Of a stretch of 64,000 bases of DNA, positions 12,001-18,000 are shown in pieces (within the stretch, counting starts at the first letter, position 1; each line of letters starts with the position of its first letter). Source of the stretch: Escherichia coli (GTDB lineage: Bacteria > Pseudomonadota > Gammaproteobacteria > Enterobacterales > Enterobacteriaceae); the NCBI RefSeq assembly GCF_024298765.1, contig NZ_CP101211.1; one strand, 5' to 3'. The position numbers were made by a program.

Positions 12001-15000
12001 TTTAATATTAACGCTTTGGTTTATGAAAATTTATCCAATTTGCTCACCGAAGACTTTTAACTTATTTAACCCCCTTTATCGCCAATCTGTGATTTTCTAA
12101 TGTTAGCCTACAGTTCTAGGGCCCTTGCTCCCATGATGCGAATCCTTCCACCTAATAAAGATTAACGCCTCATTCCTGTATGCCGGTCTTACGACGCCAG
12201 TGCTCGGGCTATTTTCGGTCCTAACAAGACCTGGCGAGAGATTTAATCAGGGCGTGGTGTGACTGAGCAGCAGCTGGGGCACTGTTATCCGCTTGCAGAT
12301 TTAACCCCCTTAATCGCCAAACTGGGGTACTGTCCTGATGCTGGCCTTCAGTTCTGGGCTGGGTGGCTATCACTTCCTCCCATAATGCGAAATGTAACTG
12401 CTGATACAGATTAACGTCATATTCCTGCGTGCCGGTCTGCCAACACCAGTGCACGGGCTTTTTTCGGTCATCACATTACCGGGCAGGAGATTTTATCAGG
12501 GCGTGGTGTGACTGAGCAGAAGCTGGGGCACTGTCAGCAGCTTGCAGATTTAACCCCCTTAATCGCCACACTGGGATTCTGGTCTGATATTGACCTTCCG
12601 TTCTGGGCGGGGTTCGGTTTGCTAACACTTACTCCCATGATACGAAATGTGCCTGCTGATACAGATTAAAATCACATTACTGCATACCGGTCTGCCGACA
12701 CCGGTGCATGGGCGATTTCCGACGATCTCAAGAACATATGGGAGATTATATCAGGGAGAGTAGTATGCCTGAGCAGCATCTGAAGGCACTGTCAGCCGCT
12801 GTCAGATTTAACCCCCTTAATCGCCAAACTGGTGTTCTGTCCTCATGCAGGCCTTCAGTTCTGAGCTGGGTTGCTATCACTTGCTCCCATAATGCGAAAT
12901 GTACCTGCTGATACAAATTAACGTCGTATTCCTGTATGCCGGTCTGCCGACACCAGTGCTCGGGCTATTTTCGGTCCTAACAAGACCTGGCGAGAGATTT
13001 AATCAGGGCGTGGTGTGACTGAGCAGCAGCTGGGGCACTGTTATCCGCTTGCAGATTTAACCCCCTTAATCGCCAAACTGGGGTACTGTCCTGATGCTGG
13101 CCTTCAGTTCTGGGCTGGGTGGCTATCACTTCCTCCCATAATGCGAAATGTAACTGCTGATACAGATTAACGTCATATTCCTGCGTGCCGGTCTGCCAAC
13201 ACCAGTGCACGGGCTTTTTTCGGTCATCACATTACCGGGCAGGAGATTTTATCAGGGCGTGGTGTGACTGAGCAGAAGCTGGGGCACTGTCAGCAGCTTG
13301 CAGATTTAACCCCCTTAATCGCCACACTGGGATTCTGGTCTGATATTGACCTTCCGTTCTGGGCGGGGTTCGGTTTGCTAACACTTACTCCCATGATACG
13401 AAATGTGCCTGCTGATACAGATTAAAATCACATTACTGCATACCGGTCTGCCGACACCGGTGCATGGGCGATTTCCGACGATCTCAAGAACATATGGGAG
13501 ATTATATCAGGGAGAGTAGTATGCCTGAGCAGCATCTGAAGGCACTGTCAGCCGCTGTCAGATTTAACCCCCTTAATCGCCAAACTGGTGTTCTGTCCTC
13601 ATGCAGGCCTTCAGTTCTGAGCTGGGTTGCTATCACTTGCTCCCATAATGCGAAATGTACCTGCTGATACAAATTAACGTCGTATTCCTGTATGCCGGTC
13701 TGCCGACACCAGTGCTCGGGCTATTTTCGGTCCTAACAAGACCTGGCGAGAGATTTAATCAGGGCGTGGTGTGACTGAGCAGCAGCTGGGGCACTGTTAT
13801 CCGCTTGCAGATTTAACCCCCTTAATCGCCACACTGGGGTTCAGTCCTGATAGTGTCCTTCCGTCCTGGGCTCGGTTGCTAACACTTGCTCCCATTGCGC
13901 CTGCTGATACAGATTAAAGTCACATTACTGCATACCGATCTGCCGACTCCGGTGCATGGCTTTTTCCGATAATCACAAGGACGGACGGGTGATTTTATCT
14001 TTGCATAGTATGTCTGAGCAGCATCAGAAGGCTCTGTCAGCCACTGGCAGATTTAACCCCCTTAATCTCCAAACTGGGATCAGTCCTGATAGTGTCCTTC
14101 CGTCCTGGGCAGGGTTGCTAACACTTGCTCCCATGATACGAAATGCGCCAGCTGATACAGATTAACGTCTCATTACTCCATGCCGGTCTGCCGAAACTGG
14201 TGCATAGCTTTTTTCGATATTCGCATGAACAGACGCTTGATTTTTTCAGGTTGTAATATACCTGAGCAGCATCTGAAGGCACTTTCAGTCTCTGTCAGAT
14301 TTAACCCCCTTAATCGCCAATCTGGGATTTTCTGATGTTAACCTACAGTTCAAGGCCCTTGCTCCCATGATGCGAACCTTGCAACCTGATAAAGATTTAA
14401 GCCTCATTCCTGTATGCCGGTCTTACGACTCTAGTGCACGGGGACTATTTTCGGTCATAATAAGACCTGGCGGGAGATTTAATCAGGCGTGGTGTGACTG
14501 AGCAGAAGCTGGGGCACTGTCAGCCGCTGGCAGATTAAAACCCTTTATTCGCCATCTCAAGACGTCATTATGGGTAGTCCTTTTAACTTTCTAAGGACCA
14601 TTAAGCTTAAACTCCGTTTAGAGAATGACGTAAGATTTAGGCTAAGCAGGTTAAGTGATCCCCGCTCCCGGGTTGAACACTTTATTCATCGTACGAGCGA
14701 AAGATTGTCCTTCGGGAAATATTTCTTATACACCGCTCGGGCACTTACAGCCACTGGCGGATTTAACCCCCTTAATCGCCAAACTGGGGTACTGTCCTGA
14801 TGCTGGCCTTCAGTTCTGGGCTGGGTGGCTATCACTTGCTCCCCTAATGCGAAATGTGTCTGTTGATACAGATTAACGTCATTTTCCTGCGTGCCGGTCT
14901 GCCGACACCAGTGCACGGCCTTTTTTCGGTCATTACATTACCGGGCAGGAGATTTTATCAGGGCGTGGTGTTACTGAGCAGGAGCTGGGGCACTATCAGC

Positions 15001-18000
15001 AGCTTGCATATTTAACTCCCTTAATCGCCAAACTGGTGTTCTGTCCTCATGCTGGCCTTCAGTTCTGGGCTGGGTTGCTATCTCTTGCTCCCATAATGCG
15101 AAATGTATCTGCTGATACAGATTAACGTCATATTCCTGTATGCCGGTCTGCCGACACCAGTGCTTGGGCTATTTTCGGTCATAACAAGACCTGGCGAGAG
15201 ATTTACTCAGGGCGTGGTGTGACTGAGCAGCAGCTGGGGCACTGTCATCCGCTTGCAAATTTAACCCCCTTAATCGCCAAACTTGGGTTTTGTCCTGATG
15301 CTGGCCTTCCGTTCTGGGCGGGGTTGCTATCACTTGCTCCCATCATGCGAAAAGTGCCTGCTGATACAGATTAACGTCATATTCCTTCATGCCGGTCTGC
15401 CGACACAAATGCACGGGCTTTTTTCGGTCCTTACAATACCGGGCAGGAGATTTAATCAGGGCGTGGTGTGACTGAGCAGCAGCTAGGACACTGTCAGCCG
15501 CTGGCAGATTTAACCCCCTTAATCGCCACACTGGGGTTGCCTCCTGAAGTTGGGTTTCAGTTCTGGGCTAGGTTGCTAACTCTGCTCCCATAATTCGTAG
15601 TGGGCCTACTCAAGAGATTAACACCTCATATCTTTAGACTGGACTGACGACAACGATTCACAGTTAGGAAACGTAAATCAGCACACCGGTGAGATAGATT
15701 TTAGGGTCTAAGCAAGAAATAGGGTAGGCGTGAAGATTCATTAATGGAGCTCATAACGTCAAAGCGTAGAGAAGTCGACAAGAATCGTGGTTTAAAAAGA
15801 ATGAGCATTAGGTATGGACTAGAGAGTCTGAGCTCTCATCTGCAAGTTAAGCTCACAAAAAATCATAAAAAAGTAAACAAACATTAGCTTAGGATTGAAA
15901 CAAAGGATAGAATTGTACGTATAACAATGAAATGGACGCATTATGCGTAAAGTTTACATATATGCGTAAAAGTCGGTTTTCAGTGCAAAAAGGTCATAAC
16001 CATGAATTTACTTGAAAAGATCGCCCTCGTTGGTCAGCGCATGAAAAGCGAGCAGATTTCTCTTAAGGAATCTCTGATGGCTTCATCAAGAGTATCTGTT
16101 TCTGATGATAGTGTTGATGGTGTTGATAGACTGATCTACAACCACTGTTTAAATAAAAAAAATCTCTCTGATTTTTTTGGGAAGTCACGAGTAACGTTCA
16201 ATAAAATACTTTCGGACTTAGAAGAAAAAGAACTTGTTGGTGCACCTATTTATCAAAACAAAAATCATCTTTACACCCGCTGGGATGTTCAAAAAATAAT
16301 GGATGCCCTGGGTTATCCCAAGTACCGCGATCATTACTTTAGCAGAGCTATTGTTACTCAGAATCATAAAGGCGGTACAGGGAAAAGCACTACATCTGTA
16401 GCTTTAGCAGTAGCAGCTGCTTTAGATCTACAACTGAATGCACGTGTATTAATGATCGAATGGGACCCACAAGGTTCGATTGGAAGCAGCATGATTCAAA
16501 GTGTCTCAGAAGATGATGTCTTCCTTACAGCAATTGATGCAATCCTTGGAATTTATGAAGAAAATTCTGAGTATAAAAAATATTTAGATTCAGGATTCTC
16601 TGAAGAAGAAATCATCACTAATATGCCTTTTTCAACGCATCTGCCAAACTTGGACGTGATAACGGCATTTCCGACAGATGCTCGTTTTAAAGATAAATAC
16701 TGGCAATGTTCTAGAGAAGAACGAACGTCTTTGTTACTACGTTTCAAGGAAGTTATCTTACCGGTACTGAAGCAGAACTATGATTTGATTATTATAGACA
16801 CTCCACCTGAAGATTCACCTTTGATCTGGGCTGCTGACGAAGCGGCCGATGGGATTCTTGTCGCAGTGTCACCACGTGAATATGATTACGCCTCTACTAC
16901 AGACTTCATGCTTACAATAAGTGAAAGGTTTAAACAATCACCAAGTAAGGGCGATAATTTAAAATGGTTCAAAGTTCTTGCTGTCAATGTTGATGACAAA
17001 AGTCCATATGAAAGAATAGTTTTGGATAAATTAATCAGAACTGTTCAGGACCTTTTGATGTCCGCTAACATAAAAAATTCTGAAGCATTTAAGGCAGCTG
17101 CTTCCAAAGGGCGTACAGTGCTTGATATCAAAAAATCAGAGGAACTTTGTTCCGCAAAGCAACTTGATGTCGCAGAAGAATCTGTATTACAGGTATATCA
17201 ACAATTTATAAATGAAATAAAAAGTTTTTCAGCTAAGCAAGGAGTTAACGCATGAGCGATGAGCAACATATCGGGAATGATAAATCTCGATATTTAAACG
17301 CACCAAAGCGGACAGAAGTCGGTCACCGTTCAGGTCTTGCGGGTTTGAAAACAGCACCTCGCATAAAAAAGTTATTCACTCTTCATAAGGGCCGAAGACT
17401 TGAAGCGGAACATGTGATTGTTCCAGCCCAGAGAGTGGAGAAGGAGACCTTAGTCCATCCAGCAAACCCACGAAATCAAGAAGCCCTTACAGATTATTCT
17501 GTTAGAGATATTCTTAAGCAGATTGAAGAAAGAGGGGTCGATACCGAAGGGATCGCTGTAAAAAGAGATGGGGTTTATTTATTAATAGAAGGAAGTCGCA
17601 GACGTTTCTGCTGTATAAAGGCAGAAAAGGATCTCCCCCTGTGGGTACTACCGGATGAACTAACCGAAGATGATATAAATTCAATTATATCCGCAGCACA
17701 AACATCTCGAAAATTTTCATATAGAGAAGTTGGGTTTCAATTTATCAAGAAAATGGAAGAAAAGGGATTTTCTACTAATGAAGAACTCGCAGCATATCTT
17801 GGGATTAGTCATGTATCGGTAGCCAAAAGAATCCAGGCGGCCCGTATTGACGAAACATTGATCTCTTTATTCCCGGATTATGAAGGAATACCGAACTCCT
17901 ATTATAGTCGCTTGTCTCGTTTACAGAAATATGTGCAAAAAAATCTATTTCCTTTAGATGAAGTAATAGATAATGTTAAAGAGGAAACAAAAGATTTAGA

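What the first reader, a model, noticed from the sequence alone, without database searches (positions are those of the whole stretch)
12050..15620. 3.6-kb higher-order tandem repeat array between the TraC-like gene and parA
About 15 units of ~245 bp, each with the conserved blocks CAGATTTAACCCCCTTAATCGCCAAACTGG, GGGCGTGGTGTGACTGAGCAGCAGCTGGGGCACTGTCAG and TGCCGGTCTGCCGACACCAGTGCACGGGCT-T-run. Three units (12221-12976) are duplicated exactly at 12977-13732, which indicates recent unequal crossover or array expansion. The position directly upstream of parA-parB suggests a centromere or incompatibility determinant, but the unit length is unusually long for parS-type sites and each unit holds a hairpin-plus-T-run module.
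Basis: seen in the sequence. Interest (0 to 1): 0.7.

Follow-up and report, generated by a model that had tools for sequence, protein, structure and literature searches.

The report
IncHI2 plasmid partition centromere repeat array
The 3.6-kb repeat array is most likely the segregation site (centromere) of a large IncHI2 resistance plasmid: each 249-bp unit carries one 21-bp docking site for the plasmid's P1-type ParB protein, which makes it an ordinary kind of element with unusually long repeat units.

Summary
Window 12060-15640 holds 14 core-bearing units of about 249 bp plus one divergent 227-bp unit. The 756-bp triple-unit duplication is exact.

The window is the backbone of an IncHI2 plasmid, 100% identical to many complete records. 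The array lies between trhC and the type Ia parA-parB operon.

Only a 21-bp core, ATTTAACCCCCTTAATCGCCA, is strongly conserved: pairwise identity is 98% in the core and 79% in the rest of the unit.

- The same core heads unrelated 54-bp and 56-bp repeats beside the parAB of IncHI1 and of a Citrobacter plasmid.
- Co-varied cores (AACAACCCC(C)TTGTTCGCCA/G) sit beside more distant ParB relatives.
- About 1523 plasmid records carry the core and 1522 encode ParB at 60% identity or more.
- In a complete 278-kb plasmid the core occurs nowhere outside the array.

ParB carries the P1 ParB HTH and box-B dimer domain. The core has the layout of the P1 parS right arm: an inverted repeat followed by TCGCCA.

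The array is non-coding. It has no promoters and no Rfam match.

Verdict: a ParB-loading centromere array, a new member of a known kind. ParB binding is inferred, not shown. Interest is low to moderate.

The parts
12060..15640 (+). Whole tandem array: 14 core-bearing units (235-258 bp, mode 249) plus one divergent unit. G+C is about 0.50 against 0.33-0.40 in the flanks.
12064..12084 (+). Core 1 (ATTTAACCCCCTTTATCGCCA, 1 mismatch): predicted ParB site.
12299..12319 (+). Core 2 (exact ATTTAACCCCCTTAATCGCCA).
12548..12568 (+). Core 3 (exact).
12806..12826 (+). Core 4 (exact).
13055..13075 (+). Core 5 (exact).
13304..13324 (+). Core 6 (exact).
13562..13582 (+). Core 7 (exact).
13811..13831 (+). 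Core 8 (exact).
14051..14071 (+). Core 9 (box B reads TCTCCA, 1 mismatch).
14299..14319 (+). Core 10 (exact).
14535..14761 (+). Divergent 227-bp unit with a degenerate core (ATTAAAACCCTTTATTCGCCA). Other IncHI2 lineages carry two paralogous copies.
14761..14781 (+). Core 11 (exact).
15010..15030 (+). Core 12 (1 mismatch in the C-run).
15259..15279 (+). Core 13 (exact).
15508..15528 (+). Core 14 (exact). The last unit is partial.
12221..12976 (+). First copy of the exact 756-bp three-unit block.
12977..13732 (+). Second copy of the exact 756-bp block. It is absent from related plasmid L007 and present in L008.
15936..15970 (+). Candidate ParA operator: palindrome ACGCATTATGCGT plus two direct TATGCGTAAA. 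It lies about 300 bp downstream of the array and 30-65 bp upstream of parA. Relatives have analogous palindromes.
   Evidence: inference
16002..17255 (+). parA: 417-aa Walker-type ATPase with a 114-aa N-terminal extension (type Ia).
17252..18256 (+). parB: 334 aa, P1-ParB-like (HTH plus box-B dimer domain PF08775; GSRRR arginine patch).
8955..11636 (+). trhC (TraC-family conjugation ATPase). It marks the upstream boundary and is not part of the system.

Best explanation
The array is the cis-acting centromere (parS array) of the type Ia ParA-ParB partition system (Par1) of IncHI2 plasmids.

Each 249-bp unit contributes one 21-bp ParB site, ATTTAAC-CCCC-TTAA-TCGCCA. By analogy with the right arm of P1 parS, the two HTH domains of a ParB dimer would read the short inverted repeat (TTTAA / TTAA(T)). 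The C-terminal dimer domain would read the box-B hexamer TCGCCA.

The 14 sites spread over 3.5 kb would nucleate a large ParB complex. ParB has the arginine patch expected for CTP-dependent loading and spreading. ParA-ATP on the nucleoid would then move and position that complex, so each daughter cell receives the low-copy 200-300-kb plasmid.

ParA probably represses parAB at a separate palindromic operator just upstream of parA.

The remaining 228 bp or so of each unit is IncHI2-specific spacer. It has most likely been carried along by unequal crossing-over, which also explains the exact 756-bp duplication and the 6-16 copy range among isolates.

Shown here: the anatomy, conservation, co-occurrence and co-variation of the core with this ParB clade, and ParB's homology to P1 ParB.
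Inferred: ParB binding, the roles of the two ParB domains, spreading, and partition and incompatibility activity.
For: 1. ParB is P1-ParB-like. PDB 1zx4/2ntz (P1 ParB HTH plus dimer domain) match at E = 4e-16 over residues 150-330. Pfam PF08775 covers residues 207-330 at E = 1e-10. Identity to P1 ParB is 28% over residues 34-315. GSRRR and the C-terminal KD..AR..G..EF.R residues are invariant across the clade and P1.
2. ParA is 417 aa, with the Walker domain starting at residue 115.
3. The core is by far the most conserved part of the unit. Pairwise identity is 97.9% against 78.5%. The longest conserved run is 20 columns (P = 0.0002). The result holds when units are anchored in the spacer instead.
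4. Relatives with unrelated spacers keep the same core next to parAB.
   - IncHI1-type p3498: 27 cores in 52-54-bp units between trhC and parA.
   - A Citrobacter plasmid of different backbone: seven 56-bp units directly upstream of parA.
   - Similarity between HI1 and HI2 units stops at the core.
5. More distant ParBs have co-varied cores of the same layout.
   - Providencia plasmid (ParB 55% identical): single AAAACAACCCCCTTGTTCGCCAA copies upstream of parA and downstream of parB.
   - IncHI3-type plasmid (49%): 32 units of 66 bp with AACAACCCCGTTGTTCGCAG.
   - The HTH helix reads SHVSV in the TTAA-arm lineages and (T/I)ES(V/I)R in the ACAAC-arm lineages.
6. Co-occurrence is close to 1:1. 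1523 plasmid records hold the exact core and 1522 encode ParB at 60% identity or more.
7. In the complete 278,374-bp plasmid NZ_CP037959.1, the core with up to 4 mismatches occurs only inside the array.
8. The annotated P1 parS reads ATTTCAA-g-GTGAAAT/TCGCCA, that is, an inverted repeat followed by box B. This is the same layout and the identical box-B hexamer as the core.
9. There is no room for a centromere downstream of parB: only about 60 bp separate it from a convergent gene.
10. In the IncHI1 plasmid R27 the homologous type I module is the major stability determinant (PMC4489591 and PMC13245405, both citing Lawley & Taylor 2003).
Against: - There is no experimental ParB-DNA binding or stability data for this array. 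Everything rests on comparison.
- In P1 and F the centromere lies downstream of parB, not upstream of parA.
- The inverted repeat in the IncHI2 core is short and imperfect (TTTAA / TTAAT, 4 of 5 positions complementary).
- The lineages used for co-variation are few (five) and are not phylogenetically independent.
- The 228-bp spacer, its higher G+C content and one marginally over-conserved block (CCGGTCTGCCGAC, P = 0.04) are not explained by ParB binding.
- I could not read the primary R27 and R478 papers to see which site they mapped.
Confidence: 0.82

Rival explanations
1. The array is a ParB-binding centromere, and the 228-bp non-core part of each unit also has a sequence-specific role. It might bind a second factor (a host nucleoid protein or another plasmid protein), or it might set the spacing of the ParB loading sites. 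This adds to the best explanation rather than replacing it.
For: - Several short islands are nearly invariant across 23 distinct units from four IncHI2 arrays: CCGGTCTGCCGAC (13 columns, P = 0.04), CTGAGCAG and AGATTAA.
- The spacer is kept at about 249 bp in both diverged IncHI2 lineages.
- The array is richer in G+C than the backbone.
Against: - Apart from one marginal block, spacer conservation does not exceed a column-permutation null.
- The box-A-like CAGATTAAC match is at chance level (P = 0.65).
- There is no internal periodicity.
- Relatives work with unrelated 30-45-bp spacers.
- Units are related by recent duplication, so shared blocks may simply reflect ancestry.
Confidence: 0.12
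2. The array is a functionless satellite that expanded by unequal crossing-over. The working centromere of Par1 is elsewhere, or only one or two of the copies matter.
For: - Copy number varies from 6 to 16 among isolates without obvious consequence.
- The Providencia relative manages with two single sites.
Against: - No other copy of the core exists in a complete 278-kb plasmid.
- The core is held at 98% identity while the spacer drifts to 79%.
- Every member of the ParB clade at 60% identity or more keeps multiple cores (4-25 per record).
Confidence: 0.04
3. Each unit is an RNA-level module: a terminator or insulator between the Tra2 transfer operon and parAB, or a repeated small-RNA or peptide gene.
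For: - There is a T-run after a G+C-rich segment in most units.
- PGAP-162-nt ORFs in some records.
Against: - Terminator-like sites are at chance level: 6 against 4.7 +/- 2.5, and none fall at the quoted block in the common unit types.
- Hairpin energies give z between 0.0 and 0.6.
- No sigma-70-like promoter lies inside the array: 2 in the region, both outside it, against 6.9 expected.
- No Rfam family matches at E = 1 or below.
- Every reading frame has at least 43 stops.
Confidence: 0.02
4. The units are replication iterons or copy-control sites of an IncHI replicon.
For: Tandem direct repeats are typical of iteron replicons. IncHI plasmids carry several replicons.
Against: - No rep gene is adjacent. 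repHI2 lies about 30 kb away across the record origin, at 260.8-261.8 kb of the 278-kb circular plasmid.
- The core travels with parAB in non-IncHI backbones.
- The core has the P1 parS layout rather than an iteron layout.
Confidence: 0.01

Closest known systems
P1 prophage-plasmid parS (ParB box A / box B site; P1/P7/pMT1 family, type Ia)
   Same: - ParB is homologous over its full length, including the HTH and the box-B-binding dimer domain PF08775.
- The core has the layout of the P1 right arm A2-A3-B2: a short inverted repeat immediately followed by TCGCCA, the identical box-B hexamer.
- ParA is the large type Ia form, with a separate operator upstream of parA.
   Different: - P1 has a single 83-bp parS downstream of parB, with two arms and an IHF site. 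Here there are 14 direct copies of a right-arm-like core upstream of parA, with no left arm and no recognisable IHF site.
- The arm sequence differs: TTTAA/TTAA against TTTCA/TGAAA.
- The spacer between the arms is a C-run of 4-5 nt instead of 1-3 nt.
- ParB is only 28% identical.
F plasmid sopC (12 tandem 43-bp repeats, each with one SopB site)
   Same: It is a centromere built as a tandem array of direct repeats, one binding motif per unit, serving a type Ia ParA/ParB pair (sopC as described in PMC3177203). Copy number is in the same range.
   Different: - The unit is 249 bp instead of 43 bp.
- The motif is a P1-type inverted repeat plus box B, not the 16-bp SopB palindrome.
- It lies upstream of parA rather than downstream of sopB.
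- NCBIfam gives only a weak SopA-type match (31 bits against a cut-off of 725).
Par1 of IncHI1 plasmid R27 and the arrays of IncHI1 / IncHI3 relatives
   Same: - They are orthologous parAB systems (ParB 72% and 49% identical).
- The position in Tra2 between trhC and parA is the same in IncHI1.
- IncHI1 has the identical 21-bp core (R27 holds 20 BLAST places).
- R27 Par1 is experimentally the major stability determinant (PMC4489591).
   Different: - Units are 52-54 bp (IncHI1) or 66 bp (IncHI3), with spacers unrelated to the IncHI2 spacer.
- The IncHI3 core is co-varied, and extra copies lie downstream of parB.
Type Ib centromere-operators upstream of parA (for example pB171 parC1, TP228 parH)
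   Same: It is a repeat array located upstream of the ATPase gene.
   Different: - Those systems use small ParA proteins of about 210 aa and RHH-type binding proteins, and their arrays overlap the promoter and act as operator.
- Here ParA is 417 aa and ParB is an HTH ParB.
- The array ends about 360 bp before parA, and a distinct palindrome occupies the operator position.

Membership tests
Type Ia ParABS partition locus, P1-ParB subfamily (centromere = parS) | Large Walker-type ParA with an N-terminal extension ahead of the ATPase domain | tested here: met
   ParA is 417 aa. The AAA_31/CbiA domain starts at residue 115 and there is a weak HTH match at residues 50-79.
Type Ia ParABS partition locus, P1-ParB subfamily (centromere = parS) | ParB with an HTH domain and the P1-type C-terminal dimer domain that reads box B | tested here: met
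   PDB 1zx4/2ntz match at E = 4e-16 over residues 150-330. Pfam PF08775 covers residues 207-330 at E = 1e-10.
Type Ia ParABS partition locus, P1-ParB subfamily (centromere = parS) | N-terminal arginine patch (GxRRR) of the ParB/Srx fold, used for CTP binding and ParA stimulation | tested here: met
   EGSRRRF at residues 113-119 is invariant in all five relatives and in P1 ParB. This is a sequence observation only. Pfam ParBc did not reach threshold.
Type Ia ParABS partition locus, P1-ParB subfamily (centromere = parS) | Cis site made of box-A-type inverted heptamers plus a box-B hexamer | tested here: met
   The core ATTTAAC-CCCC-TTAA-TCGCCA was compared with the annotated P1 boxes A2 ATTTCAA, A3 GTGAAAT and B2 TCGCCA. 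The inverted arms are short and imperfect.
Type Ia ParABS partition locus, P1-ParB subfamily (centromere = parS) | The site is linked to, and co-varies with, its ParB | tested here: met
   1523 records hold the core and 1522 encode ParB at 60% identity or more. Variant cores accompany the 55% and 49% ParBs. The core occurs only in the array of a complete plasmid.
Type Ia ParABS partition locus, P1-ParB subfamily (centromere = parS) | Centromere located downstream of parB, two-armed, with an IHF site (the full P1 parS) | tested here: not met
   The array is upstream of parA. Only about 60 bp separate parB from a convergent gene. No left arm or extra box was found outside the core.
Type Ia ParABS partition locus, P1-ParB subfamily (centromere = parS) | ParB binds the site, and the site confers ParAB-dependent stability and incompatibility | not testable with these tools
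   This needs EMSA or ChIP-seq, plus mini-replicon stability and incompatibility assays.
sopC-like tandem-array centromere | Head-to-tail direct repeats, each with one binding motif for the partner protein | tested here: met
   There are 14 cores, all on the + strand, one per unit.
sopC-like tandem-array centromere | Short unit (43 bp) carrying the 16-bp SopB palindrome | tested here: not met
   The unit is 235-258 bp and the motif is unrelated. The SopA model scores 31 bits against a cut-off of 725.
Type Ib centromere-operator | Small ParA, and an array that overlaps the par promoter and acts as operator | tested here: not met
   ParA is 417 aa. The array ends at about 15640, 360 bp before parA. 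A separate palindrome lies at 15936-15948.
Intrinsic terminator / small-RNA repeat module | Stable G+C-rich hairpin directly followed by a T-run; a promoter or a known RNA family | tested here: not met
   Terminator-like sites are at chance level and there is no promoter in the array. Fold z-scores lie between 0.0 and 0.6. There is no Rfam match.
Replication iterons | Repeats adjacent to, and bound by, a Rep initiator | tested here: not met
   The nearest annotated rep gene, repHI2, is at 260.8-261.8 kb of the 278-kb circular record, about 30 kb from the array across the record origin. The core follows parAB into non-IncHI backbones.

The most novel reading that the evidence does not exclude
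IncHI2 plasmids may have evolved a 'dispersed-array' centromere. P1-type ParB loading sites would be deliberately spaced every 249 bp by a lineage-specific, G+C-rich spacer that has its own function. The invariant CCGGTCTGCCGAC block might bind a second protein. Alternatively, the spacing might let CTP-bound ParB clamps fill 3.5 kb and so build a larger, H-NS-free partition complex on an otherwise AT-rich, H-NS-silenced backbone. Because IncHI1 has the identical core, the array would also be a cross-subgroup incompatibility determinant between IncHI1 and IncHI2.
Probability: 0.15. Interest if true: 0.5.

Novelty: new member of a known kind. Interest (0 to 1): 0.3.

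Why it matters
IncHI2 plasmids are among the main carriers of mcr-1, mcr-9, ESBL and carbapenemase genes in Salmonella, E. coli and Enterobacter. More than 1100 records in PLSDB carry this array.

Pinpointing the 21-bp ParB site has four practical uses:
- It gives a concrete target for plasmid-curing or incompatibility-based displacement.
- It explains a 3-4-kb stretch that annotation pipelines leave blank or fill with spurious small ORFs.
- It provides a variable-copy-number marker (6-16 units) for typing plasmid lineages.
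- It predicts Par-mediated cross-talk between IncHI1 and IncHI2, which share the core.

Conceptually, it shows that a P1-type ParB, normally served by a single IHF-bent site, can be served by a sopC-style array whose spacer length is free to range from about 30 to about 230 bp.

Tried and rejected
Hypotheses tested and rejected:
- Terminator or hairpin module. The consensus scan is at chance level and fold z-scores are about 0.
- Known RNA family. Nothing matches at E = 1 or below.
- Coding repeat, including a decayed Ig-like repeat gene, which I considered because 249, 258 and 240 are multiples of 3. Every frame has at least 43 stops and the longest open stretch is 100 codons.
- The 249-bp unit as a decayed multimer of 54-bp IncHI1-type units, or as a carrier of extra box-A sites. 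No match outside the core exceeds shuffles (P = 0.65-0.78) and there is no internal periodicity.
- A foreign origin for the spacer. blastn at word size 11 finds it only in IncHI2 plasmids (1127 records).
- A structured RNA in the divergent 227-bp unit. The minus strand gives z = -2.06 and the plus strand -0.11, and the paralogues show no compensatory changes by eye. I did not pursue it further.

Literature, which led nowhere:
- The primary papers on R27 Par1 (Lawley & Taylor 2003), the R27 sequence and the R478 sequence are not held.
- No held paper contains the core sequence.
- Keyword searches found no description of an IncHI parS.

Full report

Yes. Tandem Repeats Finder reports two stretches with period 249: 12124-14554 (9.8 copies) and 14735-15594 (3.5 copies). 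They are the only tandem repeats in the 64-kb window at score 60 or more.

The block TTTAACCCCCTTAATCGCCA occurs 14 times with at most one mismatch. All copies are on the + strand and all lie between 12065 and 15528. Shuffled sequence gives 0.01 expected. Spacings are 235-258 bp, apart from one 462-bp gap. That gap holds a divergent 227-bp unit (14535-14761) with a degenerate core.

Segment 12221-12976 is identical to 12977-13732 at all 756 positions. The identity runs 24 bp further left and 99 bp further right. At least 30 independent complete plasmids are 100% identical across 11000-17000, so this is not an assembly artefact.

The array has G+C of about 0.50, against 0.33-0.40 in its flanks.

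**2. Where are we?**

The window is the backbone of an IncHI2 conjugative plasmid. 1128 PLSDB records from Salmonella, E. coli, Enterobacter and others match the region. They are typed IncHI2A, MOBH, MPF_F.

The array lies in transfer region Tra2, between trhC (TraC family, 8955-11636) and parA (16002-17255) and parB (17252-18256). A second, actin-type parM system follows a few kb downstream.

**3. Anatomy of the unit**

I aligned 23 distinct units from four IncHI2 arrays. The first 20 columns, which form the core, are almost invariant: pairwise identity is 97.9%, against 78.5% for the remaining 230 columns or so. The 20-column conserved run exceeds a column-permutation null (P = 0.0002). The next block, CCGGTCTGCCGAC, is marginal (P = 0.04 among the non-core columns). 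Anchoring the units in the spacer instead of the core gives the same picture, so this is not an ascertainment effect.

The array is not coding. Every frame has at least 43 stops and the longest open stretch is 100 codons. The 126-162-nt "hypothetical proteins" that PGAP places there in some records are therefore spurious.

There is no sign of an RNA-level function:
- No sigma-70-like promoter falls inside the array.
- Terminator-like sites number 6, against 4.7 +/- 2.5 expected.
- No Rfam family matches at E = 1 or below.

The non-core part of the unit is found only in IncHI2 plasmids (1127 records at blastn word size 11). It has no internal periodicity and no cryptic extra cores.

**4. Comparative evidence**

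This is the decisive part. I used ParB as a probe (tblastn) and examined parAB loci at decreasing identity.

| Relative | ParB identity | What lies beside parAB |
|---|---|---|
| IncHI1-type p3498 | 72% | A 3.2-kb trhC-parA gap with 27 cores at 52-54-bp spacing. The core is the identical ATTTAACCCCCTTAATCGCCA and the rest of the unit is unrelated. |
| Citrobacter freundii plasmid, different backbone (MPF_T, no trhC nearby) | 74% | Seven 56-bp units with the same core, directly upstream of parA. |
| Providencia plasmid | 55% | No array. Two single copies of AAAACAACCCCCTTGTTCGCCAA, one upstream of parA and one downstream of parB. |
| IncHI1B/FIB (IncHI3-type) Klebsiella plasmid | 49% | 32 units of 66 bp upstream of parA, plus 2.4 units downstream of parB, with core AACAACCCCGTTGTTCGCAG. 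|

One 20-21-bp motif therefore travels with this ParB clade. It consists of a short inverted repeat around a C-run, followed by (T)CGCCA or (T)CGCAG. The motif is present whatever the repeat length (none, 54, 56, 66 or 249 bp), the spacer sequence or the neighbouring genes. It also changes when ParB diverges.

The predicted HTH recognition helix reads SHVSV in the three TTAA-arm lineages and (T/I)ES(V/I)R in the two ACAAC-arm lineages. This fits co-variation, but with five related lineages it is not independent proof.

Co-occurrence is essentially 1:1. 1523 plasmid records hold the exact core and 1522 encode ParB at 60% identity or more.

In the complete 278,374-bp plasmid NZ_CP037959.1, the core with up to four mismatches occurs only inside the array.

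**5. The protein and the P1 precedent**

- The window's ParB matches the crystallised HTH-plus-dimer fragment of P1 ParB (1zx4, 2ntz; E = 4e-16, residues 150-330).
- It carries Pfam PF08775, the P1 ParB C-terminal domain.
- It aligns with P1 ParB over residues 34-315 at 28% identity.
- GSRRR and a C-terminal KD..AR..G..EF.R signature are invariant.
- ParA is 417 aa, with a 114-residue extension ahead of the Walker domain. This is the type Ia form.

The P1 GenBank record annotates parS box by box. Its right arm is A2 ATTTCAA, g, A3 GTGAAAT, overlapping B2 TCGCCA. That is an inverted repeat (TTTCA / TGAAA) immediately followed by TCGCCA. The IncHI2 core ATTTAAC-CCCC-TTAA-TCGCCA has the same layout, about the same length (21 against 20 nt) and the identical box-B hexamer.

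From my own knowledge (Schumacher & Funnell 2005; Martin et al. 1991; Funnell & Gagnier 1993; not re-read here), the P1 ParB HTH domains contact the A boxes, the dimer domain contacts the B box, and the right arm alone ("parS-small") supports partition.

**6. How it most likely works**

ParB dimers load at each of the 14 cores. The HTH domains sit on the TTAA arms and the dimer domain sits on TCGCCA. The arginine patch suggests CTP-dependent clamping and spreading, as in other ParB proteins. The result would be a large complex covering about 3.5 kb.

ParA-ATP bound to the nucleoid would then position the plasmid copies, so that each daughter cell inherits one.

ParA probably autoregulates at a separate operator. 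The palindrome ACGCATTATGCGT (15936-15948) with two TATGCGTAAA repeats lies 30-65 bp upstream of parA. Each relative has its own palindrome at the same place.

The steps from "ParB binds the core" onward are inference. What is shown is the anatomy, the conservation, the linkage and the homology.

Independent support that this module matters comes from R27, where the orthologous type I system is the major stability determinant (PMC4489591; PMC13245405, citing Lawley & Taylor 2003).

**7. Array dynamics**

IncHI2 plasmids carry between 6 and 16 cores. One lineage (L007) lacks the 756-bp duplication and has 11 cores. Another (L008) has the duplication plus a second divergent unit. The R478/pK29-type array has 11 cores in units about 86% identical to those of the window.

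This is what unequal crossing-over in a tandem array produces.

**8. Rivals**

- The spacer may have a function of its own (second-factor binding, or spacing of ParB loading sites). This is not excluded, but it rests on one marginal conserved block.
- A functionless satellite with the real centromere elsewhere is unlikely. The core occurs nowhere else in the plasmid and is selectively conserved.
- Terminator, small-RNA, peptide and iteron readings each fail a defining test.

**9. Comparison with what is known, and novelty**

In kind, this is a tandem-array centromere, like F sopC, serving a P1-family type Ia ParAB.

It differs from P1 in three ways:
- It has many copies instead of one.
- It lies upstream of parA instead of downstream of parB.
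- It has no second arm and no IHF site.

It differs from sopC in its motif and in its 249-bp unit, against 43 bp. It differs from type Ib upstream centromere-operators in protein type and in being separate from the operator.

I could not obtain the 2000-2004 papers on R27 and R478. No held paper contains the core sequence or describes an IncHI parS. I therefore cannot tell whether the repeats were already assigned as the Par1 cis site.

I rate it a new member of a known kind. The long unit is a curiosity rather than a new principle.

**10. Verdict**

- The centromere interpretation is supported by strong comparative evidence, but it is untested experimentally.
- The hairpin / T-run idea is rejected.
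- Confidence in the centromere reading is about 0.8.
- Interest is 0.3.

Noticed in passing
window 14535-14761 (also L006 2117-2371 and 3567-3821; L008 1787-2042 and 4249-4504): This is a divergent 227-bp 'D-type' unit with a degenerate core (ATTAAAACCCTTTATTCGCCA) and lower G+C. Most IncHI2 lineages carry two paralogous copies and the window lineage has one. The five copies show 92% mean column identity, which is higher than the ordinary spacers. The minus-strand RNA fold gives z = -2.06 and the plus strand -0.11. I saw no compensatory changes by eye.
   Followed up: partly
window 12260-12415, 12509-12670 and their repeats (L001 7260-10594): PGAP annotates 126-162-nt 'hypothetical protein' genes inside the array in some RefSeq records. 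The array has at least 43 stop codons in every frame and the ORFs are not conserved between units, so these calls look spurious.
   Followed up: yes
window 15936-15970: The palindrome ACGCATTATGCGT overlaps two direct TATGCGTAAA repeats just upstream of parA, making it a candidate ParA operator. Relatives have their own palindromes at the same position: L002 ACGCATAACGCGTAAAGTAT x2.3, L005 GTGCATTACAATGCAC, L004 GTGCATTGTAATGCAC.
   Followed up: partly
L004 7407-7452 and 10194-10349: The IncHI3-type Klebsiella plasmid has an (AGGGC)x9 microsatellite between its array and parA. It also has 2.4 extra 66-bp centromere-type units downstream of parB. Its parAB is flanked on both sides by 2.4-kb Ig-like-domain genes rather than by trhC.
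   Followed up: no
L002 5460-6240: The IncHI1-type array is split into 4 plus 23 cores by about 800 bp of AT-rich, non-repeat DNA with no annotated gene.
   Followed up: no
window 12000-15700 compared with its flanks: All three IncHI arrays (HI1, HI2, HI3) are markedly richer in G+C (about 0.50-0.57) than their AT-rich backbones (0.33-0.40). This might keep them free of H-NS, but I did not test it (and unit consensus sequences).
   Followed up: no
IncHI1 (L002, R27 NC_002305.1) compared with IncHI2 (window): IncHI1 and IncHI2 share the identical 21-bp core although their ParBs are only 72% identical. This predicts partition-mediated cross-incompatibility between the two subgroups.
   Followed up: no
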